Origin: the human T2T-CHM13v2.0 reference genome, Homo sapiens
Length of the DNA: 64,000 nucleotides
Assembly (NCBI RefSeq): GCF_009914755.1
Contig: NC_060926.1
Strand: one strand, 5' to 3'
The notes below the pieces were generated by a model. The model saw nothing but the letters and a program-made list of their open reading frames with translations. It had not been told where the DNA came from and ran no database searches. Each line of letters begins with the position of its first letter. The first letter of the stretch is position 1. Below, piece by piece: positions 230 to 3,053 of the stretch. The position numbers and the translations under genes are program-made.

Positions 230-459
230 AAGTTAGCAGAATTACAAGGAGAATGTGACAAATACCTCGACACATAAAACTCTAATACATTTTAAAAAAT
301 TAGAACCATTTAGGAAAAAAATATAGAATTTTAAAACAATACAATTATGATGGACCATGTGGTAATAGATCATCTATATGGAACGTAGCGTTCTGCATTC
401 AAGAATGTACATTCTTCAAAAACATACAGAAAACTTTAATTCAAAATGACCACATACTA
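230..459 (+). mobile_element. Old L1M-type LINE-1 ORF2 fragment (host of the 460-3036 insertion)
   Basis: Degenerate endonuclease-region sequence (aagaatgtacattcttc...aaaatgaccacatacta) that resumes after 3053; start approximate. Confidence 0.6.
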
Positions 460-1664
460 TGCAGAAGCTCTTTAGTTTAATTAGATCCCATTTGTCAATT
501 TTGGCTTTTGTTGCCATTGCTTTTGGTGTTTTAGACATGAAGTCTTTGCTCATGTCTATGTCCTGAATGGTATTGCCTAGGTTTTCTTCTAAGGCTTTTA
601 TGGTTTTAGGTCTAACATTTAAGTCTTTAATCCATCTTGAATTAATTTTTGTATAAGGTGTAAGGAAGGGATCCAGTTTCAGCTTTCTACATATGGCTAG
701 CCAGTATTCCCAGCACCATTTATTAAATAGGGAATCCATTCCCCCATTTCTTGTTTTTGTCAGGTTTGTCAAAGATCAGATGGTTGTAGATGTGTGGTAT
801 TATTTCTGAGGGCTCTGTTCTGTTCCATTGGTCTATATCTGTGTTTTGGTACCAGTACCATGCTGTTTTAGTTACTGTAGCCTTGTAGTATAGTTTGAAG
901 TCAGGTAGTGAGATGCCTCCAGCTTTGTTCTTTTGGCTTAGGATTGTCTTGGCAATGAGGGCTCTTTTTTGGTTCCACATGAACTTTAAAGTAGTTTTTT
1001 CCAATTCTGTGAAGAAAGTCATTGGTAGCTTGATGGGGATGGCATTGAATCTATAAATTACCTTGGGCAGTGTGGCCATTTTCACGATATTGATTCTTCC
1101 TACCCATGAGCGTGGAATGTTCTTCTATTTATTTGTGTCCTCTTTTATTCTGTTGAGCAGTGGTTTGTAGTTCTCCTTGAAGACATCCTTCGCATCCCTT
1201 GTAAGTTGGATTCCTAGGTATTTTATTCTCTTTGAAGCAATTGTAAATGGGAGTTCACTCATGATTTGGCTCTCTGTTTGTCTGTTTTTGGTGTATAGGA
1301 ATGCTTGTGATTTTTGCACATCGATTTTGTATCCTGAGACTTTGCTGAAGTTGCTTATCAGCTTAAGGAGATTTTCGGCTGAGACGATGGGGTTTTTCTA
1401 AATATACAATCATGTCATTTGCAAACAGGGACAATTTGACTTCCTCTTTTCCTAATTGAATACTCTTGATTTCTTTCTCCTGCCTGATTGCCCTGGCCAG
1501 AACTTCCAACACTATGTTGAATAGGAGTGATGAGAGAGGGCATCCCTGTTTTGTGCCAGTTTTCAAAGGGAATGCTTCCAGTTTTTGCCCATTTAGTATG
1601 ATATTGGCTGTGGGTTTGTCATAAATAGCTCTTATTATTTTGAGATACGTCCTATCAATGCCTA
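460..1664 (-). mobile_element. Inverted 5' segment of an L1PA5/6-like element (ORF2 RT/C-terminal region)
   Basis: Minus-strand ORFs 416-772, 723-1085, 1125-1319 and 1363-1692 translate to L1 ORF2p ([34 protein letters not shown]); begins directly after the TSD at 443-459. Confidence 0.95.
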
Positions 1665-2642
1665 AGAAACTACCATCAGAGTGAACAGGCAACCTACAGA
1701 ATGGGAGAAAATTTTTGCAATCTACTCATCTGACAAAGGGCTAATATCCAGAATCTACAAAGAACTCAAACAAATTTACAAGAAAAAAACAAACAACCCC
1801 ATCAAAAAGTGGGCAAAGGATATGAACAGACACTTCTCAAAAGAAGACATTTATGCAGCCAACAGATACATGAAAAAATGCTCGTAATCTCTAGCCATCA
1901 GAGAAATGCAAATCAAAACCACAATGAGATACCATCTCACACCAGTTAGAATGGCAATCATTAAAAAGTCAGGAAACAACAGGTGCTGGAGAGGATGTGG
2001 AGAAATAGCAACACTTTTACACTGTTGGTGGGACTGTAAACTAGTTCAATCATTGTGGAAGACAGTGTGGCGATTCCTCAAGGATCTAGAACTAGAAATA
2101 CCATTTGACCCAGCCATCCCATTACTGGGTCTAAACCCAAAGGATTGTAAATCATGCTGCTCTAAAGACACATGCACACGTATGTTTATTGCGGCACTAT
2201 TCACAATAGCAAAGATTTGGAACCAACCCAAATGTCCATCAATGATAGAGTGGATTGAGAAAATGTGGCACATATACACTATGGAATACTATGCAGCCAT
2301 AAAAAAGGATGAGTTCATGTCCTTTGTGGGGACATGGATGAAGCTAGAAACCATCATTATCAGCAAACCATCACAAGGACAAAAAACCAAACACTGCATG
2401 TTCTCAATCATAGGTGGGAATTGAACAATGAGAACACTCGGACACAGGAAGGGGAACATCACACACCAGTGCCTGTCATGGGTTGTGGGCAGGGGGGAGG
2501 GATAGCATTGGGAGATATACCTAATGTAAATGATGAGTTGATGGGGTGCAGCACACCAACATGGCACACGTGTACATATGTAACAAACCTGCACATTATG
2601 CACATGTACCCTAGAACTTAAAGTATAATAATAAAAAAAAAA
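1665..2642 (+). mobile_element. Non-inverted 3' segment of the same L1PA5/6-like element with 3' UTR and A-tail
   Basis: ORF2 C-terminus ([11 protein letters not shown]...IGGN), G-rich 3' UTR, ends ctagaacttaaagtataataataaaaaaaaaa. Confidence 0.95.
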
Positions 2643-3036
2643 GTCAGGATGCTGATGGCCAGGGAGATGGGAGAGAGTTCCCTGACCAGGCTGGAATAGT
2701 AATTCCATAAGTGGTCACCTTCTGCTATAGGTTGGTGCAAAAATAATTGCGGTTTTTGCTATATGGCAAAAAAACACGATTACTTTTGCACCAACCTATT
2801 TAGTTGTTACACTTTTATGTTTGGGAACTTTTCGGTATGCATATTATATTTCACAAAAGGAAAGTTTTTTATAAAGTGGGAAGGGGCGGTCCATGAAGTC
2901 TCCTTTACTTACAAAGTGAACAAAGTATGGTGACAGAAATGTTAAAGGGATTCCAATGAAGGTAAAAATCAACAATGTAAAATTATTCTCCCTCTTTCCA
3001 TTTGCATATAAAAATCAAATGATTTCACCCAAAAAA
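2643..3036 (+). other. L1 3'-transduced flanking sequence with second poly(A)
   Basis: Lies between the L1 A-tail and a second A-run (3031-3040) that leads into the 17-bp TSD aaaatgaccacatacta (3037-3053, identical to 443-459); TATAAA at 3007-3012. Confidence 0.85.
2728..2798. mobile_element. MADE1 (Hsmar1 mariner-derived palindromic MITE)
   Basis: taggttggtgcaaaaataattgcggtttttgc ... ggcaaaaaaacacgattacttttgcaccaaccta: Hsmar1 TIRs in a palindrome with a shortened centre. Confidence 0.92.
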
Positions 3037-3053
3037 AAAATGACCACATACTA

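What the first reader, a model, noticed from the sequence alone, without database searches (positions are those of the whole stretch)
443..3053. One L1 insertion combining a 5' inversion and a 3' transduction, bounded by a perfect 17-bp TSD
Seen: aaaatgaccacatacta occurs at 443-459 and 3037-3053. The second copy does not follow the L1 tail (~2642); it follows ~390 bp of other sequence and a second A-run, with the variant poly(A) signal TATAAA 18 nt upstream. The old host L1 reads colinearly across the TSD. Known: L1 readthrough past its weak poly(A) signal mobilises 3' flanks. Inference: 2643-3030 was copied from another locus and tags the source L1; repeat annotation alone would show only unrelated pieces.
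Basis: partly seen in the sequence, partly recalled or inferred. Interest (0 to 1): 0.75.

Follow-up and report, generated by a model that had tools for sequence, protein, structure and literature searches.

The report
Flipped L1 carrying chromosome 18 DNA
A partly flipped L1 jumping-gene copy on human chromosome 2 carries about 390 bases matching an intron of the dymeclin gene on chromosome 18, likely dragged along by a parent L1 that once sat there and was later lost; it is a tidy but ordinary example of known events.

Summary
Observation confirmed. One L1 insertion, bounded by a perfect 17-bp target-site duplication (443-459, 3037-3053), splits an old host L1 that reads through the rejoined site. 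It holds an inverted ORF2 piece (460-1665), a sense 3' piece (1664-2632), an A-tail, 388 extra bases and a second A-tail. The two L1 pieces are adjacent in uninterrupted relatives, 3-6 nt missing, with short microhomologies: the twin-priming signature. The extra bases have one other copy in the genome searches: chr18:49,261,288-49,261,684 (minus, 92%), in an intron of the dymeclin gene, same strand. They begin at an endonuclease-type A-run and end 18 nt after TATAAA, where the A-tail is untemplated. The tail (6.2%) and the L1 (5.6-5.9%) are equally diverged. Best reading (0.85): a 3' transduction from a donor L1 that never fixed and was lost, roughly 20-30 Myr ago. Inversions, 3' transductions and missing donors are each well described. 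New member of a known kind; interest 0.27.

The parts
218..442 (+). Old host L1, ORF2 endonuclease region, left of the insertion (start approximate)
   Evidence: Alignments to old L1 copies at 56-61% identity span the rejoined site
443..459 (+). Target-site duplication, left copy, 17 bp. The bottom-strand nick reads TTTT/GA. The last 3 nt overlap the L1 as a 2-of-3 microhomology
460..1665 (-). Inverted L1 ORF2 segment, about 1.2 kb, including part of the reverse transcriptase domain; frames broken
   Evidence: One alignment over the whole segment in 18 of 29 relatives, 92-95%; Pfam RVT_1 on 1363-1725 minus, E 7e-11
1664..1665 (.). 2-nt microhomology (AA) at the inversion junction
   Evidence: Both pieces align through these bases
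1664..2632 (+). Non-inverted L1 3' part: end of ORF2 (to about 2424) and 3' UTR. L1PA5-like (label recalled, not tested)
   Evidence: 93-94% to the 39 best other copies; starts 3-6 nt after the inverted piece ends in uninterrupted relatives
2630..2642 (+). L1 AATAAA and first A-run (10 A), read as the donor's own tail. The last 4 A also align to the chr18 site
2643..3030 (+). Transduced segment, 388 bp, copy of chr18:49,261,288-49,261,684 (minus strand), dymeclin intron, same strand as the gene
   Evidence: 92% over 398 columns; single other copy; Dymeclin exon matches on both sides
2727..2799 (.). Short inverted-repeat element (Made1/mir-548 type MITE) carried inside the transduced segment, also present at chr18
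   Evidence: 31-nt arms; many dispersed copies at 75-90%; Rfam mir-548 55.2 bits, E 2e-10, below the gathering score of 90
3007..3012 (+). Variant poly(A) signal TATAAA, identical at chr18
3031..3040 (+). Second A-run, not templated at chr18
   Evidence: chr18 continues with unrelated, non-A sequence
3037..3053 (+). Target-site duplication, right copy
3054..4885 (+). Old host L1 continuing right of the insertion (end approximate)

Best explanation
This is an L1 insertion with a 5' inversion and 388 extra bases that match one dymeclin intron site on chr18, likely made in one event from a readthrough RNA of a donor L1 that once sat at that site and was later lost. Shown: TSD, host colinearity, inversion geometry, single chr18 paralog, untemplated second A-run, no young L1 at chr18 today, similar divergence of L1 and tail. 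Inferred steps: (1) a full-length L1PA5-era element inserted at the chr18 A-run, sense to the gene; (2) its transcript ran past the L1 AATAAA and was cleaved 18 nt after TATAAA; (3) ORF2p nicked chr2 at TTTT/GA and primed on the new poly(A); (4) the second nick primed internally about 1.36 kb from the RNA 3' end, and the two cDNAs joined at a 2-nt microhomology (twin priming), giving the inversion and 5' truncation; (5) the donor allele never fixed, so CHM13 carries the empty chr18 site while the daughter persisted. The daughter is coding-dead and has no evident function.
For: Single paralog: the non-MITE 3' part gave 2 of 2 candidates, self and chr18, and so did the 5' part. The chr2 copy matches chr18 only from the junction on; upstream is old repeat at 67-85% to many copies. 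The junction starts exactly at a pyrimidine-AAAA motif, found at 149 of 29,301 positions on that strand (0.5%), and its first 14 nt occur once in 29.3 kb, as at an empty site. The second A-run is untemplated and 18 nt after TATAAA. Divergence agrees: tail vs parent 24 of 386 (6.2%, 95% CI 4.0-9.1); L1 vs relatives 5.9% (sense, 29 copies) and 5.6% (inverted, 18 copies). Inversion break is near-perfect with microhomology at both joins, as described for twin priming (PMC2912911 passages). Missing donors are common in primates (PMC4862182 section 14; PMC12593883 passages).
Against: The donor L1 was not observed; its past existence is inferred. An A-run at the junction is also what annealing to a poly(A) tail would give under the template-switch or nested-insertion readings. 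The age agreement is weak because the tail's interval is wide (4.0-9.1%). Continuity of the old repeat across the chr18 junction was inconclusive: 1 of 7 old copies aligned across it, and its downstream-only score equalled the shuffle maximum, so a past deletion there is not excluded by that test. No sibling transductions were found. The outer microhomology has a mismatch at the last base against most relatives; 2 of 25 parsed relatives match all three bases.
Confidence: 0.85

Rival explanations
1. No donor ever sat on chr18. Reverse transcriptase began on a polyadenylated dymeclin-intron RNA and jumped at the A-run onto an L1 RNA's poly(A) tail (or the two RNAs were joined), giving an L1-then-cellular chimera.
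For: No L1 at the source. The segment is sense to the host gene and ends after a poly(A) signal. The junction is an A-run. Template switching is invoked for an SVA-CKS1B case (PMC12593883 passage) and for U6-L1 chimeras (PMC13174262 passages).
Against: The chimeras described put the cellular RNA 5' of L1, the opposite order. The SVA case was argued from the lack of an internal poly(A), which is present here. The L1 3' end is complete with its own tail. 3' transduction is common: 350 of 5,311 L1 insertions.
Confidence: 0.05
2. Two events: the inverted L1 inserted first, and later an orphan retrocopy of the chr18 segment inserted into its A-tail, the two A-runs being the second event's TSD.
For: Both A-runs are 10 A long. 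A-tails are endonuclease targets (established knowledge).
Against: Similar divergence of both parts. Orphans are rarer than partnered 3' events (48 orphans in all vs 350 L1 3' events) and would have to hit this tail in the same orientation. An orphan transduction would still need a lost donor near the chr18 site.
Confidence: 0.04
3. The donor L1 did fix on chr18 and was later removed, precisely by recombination between its TSDs or by a larger deletion.
For: The chr18 site looks empty with one copy of the junction sequence, which precise removal would also give. The continuity test was inconclusive.
Against: Precise removal is rare compared with loss of unfixed alleles (recalled, no call). No L1PA remnant lies in 29.3 kb.
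Confidence: 0.04
4. The segment was copied at DNA level (break-repair patch or small duplication) next to the L1 tail.
For: A single dispersed paralog without an adjoining L1.
Against: The copy ends 18 nt after a poly(A) signal in an untemplated A-run and lies inside the TSD, which points to an RNA intermediate.
Confidence: 0.02

Closest known systems
5'-inverted (twin-primed) L1 insertions (Ostertag and Kazazian 2001, not held, seen only as a reference; Kojima 2010, PMC2912911, passages)
   Same: Inverted 5' and non-inverted 3' parts under one TSD, TSD over 9 bp, microhomologies at the outer and inner joins, small deletion at the break. 639 of 2,068 (30.9%) insertions in that study; 1,047 among 5,311 L1 insertions in PMC12350158.
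   Different: No difference in kind. The break loses only 3-6 nt.
Partnered L1 3' transductions (PMC12350158 passages; Hoyt et al. bioRxiv 10.1101/2021.07.12.451456 passages)
   Same: L1, A-tail, unique flank, poly(A) signal, second A-tail, TSD; the flank maps to one other locus.
   Different: Old (about 6% diverged) rather than polymorphic-age, and the donor is absent. Hoyt et al. list 183 highest-confidence L1 3' events in CHM13; their lower-confidence table S13 could not be seen and may hold this locus.
Transductions whose donor is missing from the source locus (TIGER, PMC4862182 section 14; SVA sources, PMC12593883; MAP3K13/L1PA5 5' chimera, PMC13174262)
   Same: Source locus identified by the flank, no donor element there, explained by a donor allele that segregated separately or was lost. 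The MAP3K13 case also proposes a lost intronic L1PA5.
   Different: TIGER and the SVA study treat polymorphic insertions; the MAP3K13 case is a spliced 5' event. Here it is an old 3' event with an inversion.
Made1 / hsa-mir-548 MITE (PMC1784062, abstract start only)
   Same: About 70-bp hairpin element with long terminal inverted repeats; best Rfam match is mir-548.
   Different: Score 55.2 is below the gathering score of 90; nothing shows a microRNA. This copy was duplicated as a passenger of retrotransposition, not by transposase.

Membership tests
L1 TPRT insertion | Target-site duplication flanking the whole insert | tested here: met
   17 bp, 100%, 2 of 2 matches in window, shuffles mean 0.02; host colinear
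L1 TPRT insertion | Endonuclease-type nick (TTTT/AA consensus) and 3' poly(A) | tested here: met
   Bottom strand reads TTTT/GA, a one-base variant; A-run 3031-3040
Twin-primed 5'-inverted L1 | Inverted and non-inverted parts adjacent in the intact element | tested here: met
   3-6 nt apart in relatives; whole inverted part present in 18 of 29
Twin-primed 5'-inverted L1 | Microhomology at outer and inversion junctions | tested here: met
   2 nt at the inversion junction; 2 of 3 nt at the outer junction
L1 3' transduction | Non-L1 segment between two A-tails, inside the TSD, with a source elsewhere | tested here: met
   chr18 paralog 92%; second tail untemplated
L1 3' transduction | Poly(A) signal near the end of the segment | tested here: met
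   TATAAA 18 nt upstream in both copies; no AATAAA in the segment. Use of the signal was not tested
L1 3' transduction | Donor L1 directly upstream of the source sequence | tested here: not met
   No young L1 in chr18:49,250,000-49,279,300 of CHM13. Published sets count such donor-less cases as transductions, so this lowers proof, not class
L1 3' transduction | L1 and segment inserted together (empty site in an outgroup) | not testable with these tools
   No other primate genome is held; only matching divergence supports it
L1PA5 subfamily | Diagnostic positions against subfamily consensus sequences | not testable with these tools
   No Dfam or Repbase library; the label is recalled from 3' UTR features and fits 5.0-5.9% pairwise divergence
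mir-548 precursor family | Rfam gathering score of 90 bits | tested here: not met
   55.2 bits

The most novel reading that the evidence does not exclude
No donor L1 ever existed on chr18: the insert is a reverse-order chimera in which ORF2p started on an intronically polyadenylated dymeclin RNA and switched onto an L1 poly(A) tail. Some 'donor-less 3' transductions' would then be a different reaction that captures host intron RNA behind L1.
Probability: 0.05. Interest if true: 0.6.

Novelty: new member of a known kind. Interest (0 to 1): 0.27.

Why it matters
It records an L1 insertion allele that no longer exists in this genome: a likely active element in a dymeclin intron, in the gene's sense orientation, known only from the flank its daughter carried. 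It also shows a DNA-transposon MITE duplicated by retrotransposition. Both are useful as worked examples, and a genome-wide count of such donor-less old transductions would measure how often active intronic L1s were purged. The single locus changes no model: from published rates (1,047 inversions and 350 3' transductions among 5,311 L1 insertions), about 1.3% of insertions would show both if independent. No function is indicated; the insert lies in an intron of a predicted lncRNA (annotation given with the finding).

Tried and rejected
Donor search: blastn of window 1-6000 against chr18:49,250,000-49,279,300 gave only the transduced segment. A more sensitive search gave two old pieces at 67-69%, so the old sense L1 fragment upstream of the junction is not the donor. 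Sibling search: three genome searches found only self and chr18 apart from MITE copies. In one search only 40 of 891 candidates were scored, which is why the two MITE-free parts were searched separately; the tool warns that counts are lower bounds. Continuity of the old repeat across the chr18 junction: no spanning alignment among loci in hand, 1 of 7 chosen copies spanning, not above shuffles downstream: inconclusive. tblastx of the rejoined host site against the rest of the window gave nothing; nucleotide alignments were used instead. Pfam: 1 of 5 ORF pieces matched. The coding exon for Dymeclin model positions 602-644 was not located, so which intron is not shown; 'last intron' would be recall. 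Literature: no paper held DYM, dymeclin, LINE-1 and transduction together; the AMAC/SVA lost-source search returned 0; DYM and LOC105373893 were absent from 6 supplementary files of PMC13174262 (one further file too large to read). Szak 2003, Ostertag and Kazazian 2001, Khan 2006 and the journal version of Hoyt 2022 were not held. PMC3024322 and PMC13192797 were read as passages and added nothing specific.

Full report
OBSERVATION. The 17-mer is at 443-459 and 3037-3053, identical. It has no third match in the window at up to 2 mismatches; 100 shuffles gave mean 0.02 and none reached 2. Between the copies lie an antisense L1 ORF2 piece, a sense L1 3' piece with AATAAA at 2630 and 10 A (2633-2642), 388 other bases, and 10 A (3031-3040) whose last four begin the right TSD. 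TATAAA is at 3007, 18 nt before the second A-run; another at 2870 was passed over and there is no AATAAA in the segment.

HOST. With the insert and one TSD copy removed in a script, alignments to 4 of 14 fetched old-L1 loci and to 2 old L1s elsewhere in the window span the join at 56-61% identity. Of 4 alignments inspected, 3 run through the single TSD without offset; the fourth did not reach it in the narrower search. One frame reads DHILGHK across the join, which I recall as an L1 endonuclease motif. So the whole 2.6 kb is one insert at one target site, nicked at TTTT/GA; the consensus is TTTT/AA (PMC2912911 passages).

INVERSION. The sense piece's 39 best other copies are 93-94% identical (40 of 10,565 candidates scored, 29 fetched besides self). 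In 18 of the 29 the whole inverted piece aligns in one stretch directly upstream of the sense piece. The two pieces are 3 nt apart if the last 3 nt of the TSD are counted as L1, 6 nt if not (one copy has an extra A). Bases 1664-1665 belong to both pieces. At the outer join the TSD end matches L1 in 2 of 3 bases in most relatives and in 3 of 3 in 2 of the 25 that could be parsed. This is the anatomy described for twin priming, where about 70% of inverted copies show 2-5 bp microhomology. Pfam RVT_1 matches the inverted piece (1 of 5 ORF pieces tested); the frames are broken.

SOURCE OF THE EXTRA 388 BASES. Window 2639-3030 aligns to chr18:49,261,684-49,261,288 at 92% over 398 columns, 25 mismatches, 3 gaps. 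All other hits cover only the central 70-bp hairpin, a Made1/mir-548-type MITE present in both copies (family link from the abstract start of PMC1784062). The MITE-free 3' part and the 5' part each gave 2 of 2 candidates, self and chr18: no siblings were found. Pfam Dymeclin matches on the chr18 minus strand at 49,315,187-372 and 49,239,556-672 bracket the site, so the segment is intronic and sense to that gene; the gene name DYM follows from the family and is otherwise recalled. At chr18 the sequence after the matching end is not A-rich, so the second tail was added. Upstream of the junction chr18 continues into an old repeat that matches many copies at 67-85%, and the chr2 copy matches only from the junction on. 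Direction is therefore chr18 to chr2.

NO DONOR. In 29.3 kb around the site (11 kb downstream, 17.6 kb upstream) there is no young L1: default blastn finds only the segment, a sensitive one only two old pieces at 67-69%. The junction begins at a pyrimidine followed by five A (bottom strand TTTT/GT), a motif class at 149 of 29,301 positions, and its first 14 nt occur once. That is how an empty L1 target site looks. Whether the old repeat is continuous across the junction stayed inconclusive: 1 of 7 chosen copies aligned across, with a downstream-only score equal to the shuffle maximum.

AGE. Tail against parent: 24 of 386 sites (6.2%, CI 4.0-9.1), non-CpG 21 of 374. L1 against relatives: 5.9% (sense piece, 29 copies chosen for similarity, so biased low) and 5.6% (inverted piece, 18 copies, not used for choosing). 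Among 12 relatives 5.0-5.1%. The parts are equally old within error, about 3% per copy. I read the L1 as L1PA5-like from recalled 3' UTR features; L1PA5 is given as 20.4 Myr (PMC5237266 passages). With a recalled phylogenetic rate of 1-1.5 per billion years, 3% is 20-30 Myr; the lower pedigree rate would make it older.

MECHANISM. Most likely (0.85) a donor L1 sat at the chr18 A-run, read through its own signal to the TATAAA, and the RNA was inserted on chr2 with twin priming; the donor allele was then lost. Loss may have been helped by selection against a full-length sense L1 in an intron (inference). Rivals: a template switch from dymeclin-intron RNA to an L1 tail (0.05), a second insertion nested in the A-tail (0.04), removal of a fixed donor (0.04), a DNA-level copy (0.02). 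The first three all allow an A-run at the junction; they are ranked low mainly on base rates and on the matching ages, not on a decisive test.

COMPARISON. Among 5,311 polymorphic L1 insertions, 1,047 had 5' inversions and 350 had 3' transductions, and twin-primed conformations with transductions are a listed class (PMC12350158 passages and figure legend). Missing donors are reported: no clear full-length donor at nearly all non-human primate source loci, and 23 validated cases with no L1 piece within 5 kb (PMC4862182 section 14, read whole); 84% of SVA transductions traced to a source, the rest ascribed to lost or rare donors (PMC12593883 passages); a lost intronic L1PA5 proposed for a MAP3K13 chimera (PMC13174262 passages). 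I found no paper on this locus, but the CHM13 transduction catalogue's supplementary table S13 (bioRxiv, passages only) could not be seen, and Szak 2003 was not held.

VERDICT. Real, well formed, and explained by known mechanisms. New member of a known kind; interest 0.27.

Noticed in passing
L022 3015-4479 (chr18:49,262,514-49,263,978): A 42-bp-period tandem array of 35.9 copies, 87% matches, about 0.8 kb upstream of the source junction in the same dymeclin intron.
   Followed up: no
L050 (chr15:21,413,515-21,417,485): One of the 29 close L1 relatives is itself 5'-inverted, with its break at the position matching window 1382.
   Followed up: no
L051 (chr12:81,641,796-81,645,764): Two young L1 3' parts in the same orientation about 1.6 kb apart (93.6% and 92.6% to window 1664-2638), possibly a tandem or nested insertion.
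   Followed up: no
window 2727-2799 and chr18:49,261,525-49,261,596: A Made1/mir-548-type hairpin duplicated as a passenger of the transduction; both copies keep long inverted arms; Rfam score below the family cut-off.
   Followed up: partly
G000:C17:75,843,721-75,856,444 (minus): A second gene with Pfam Dymeclin matches; I recall this as the paralog HID1.
   Followed up: no
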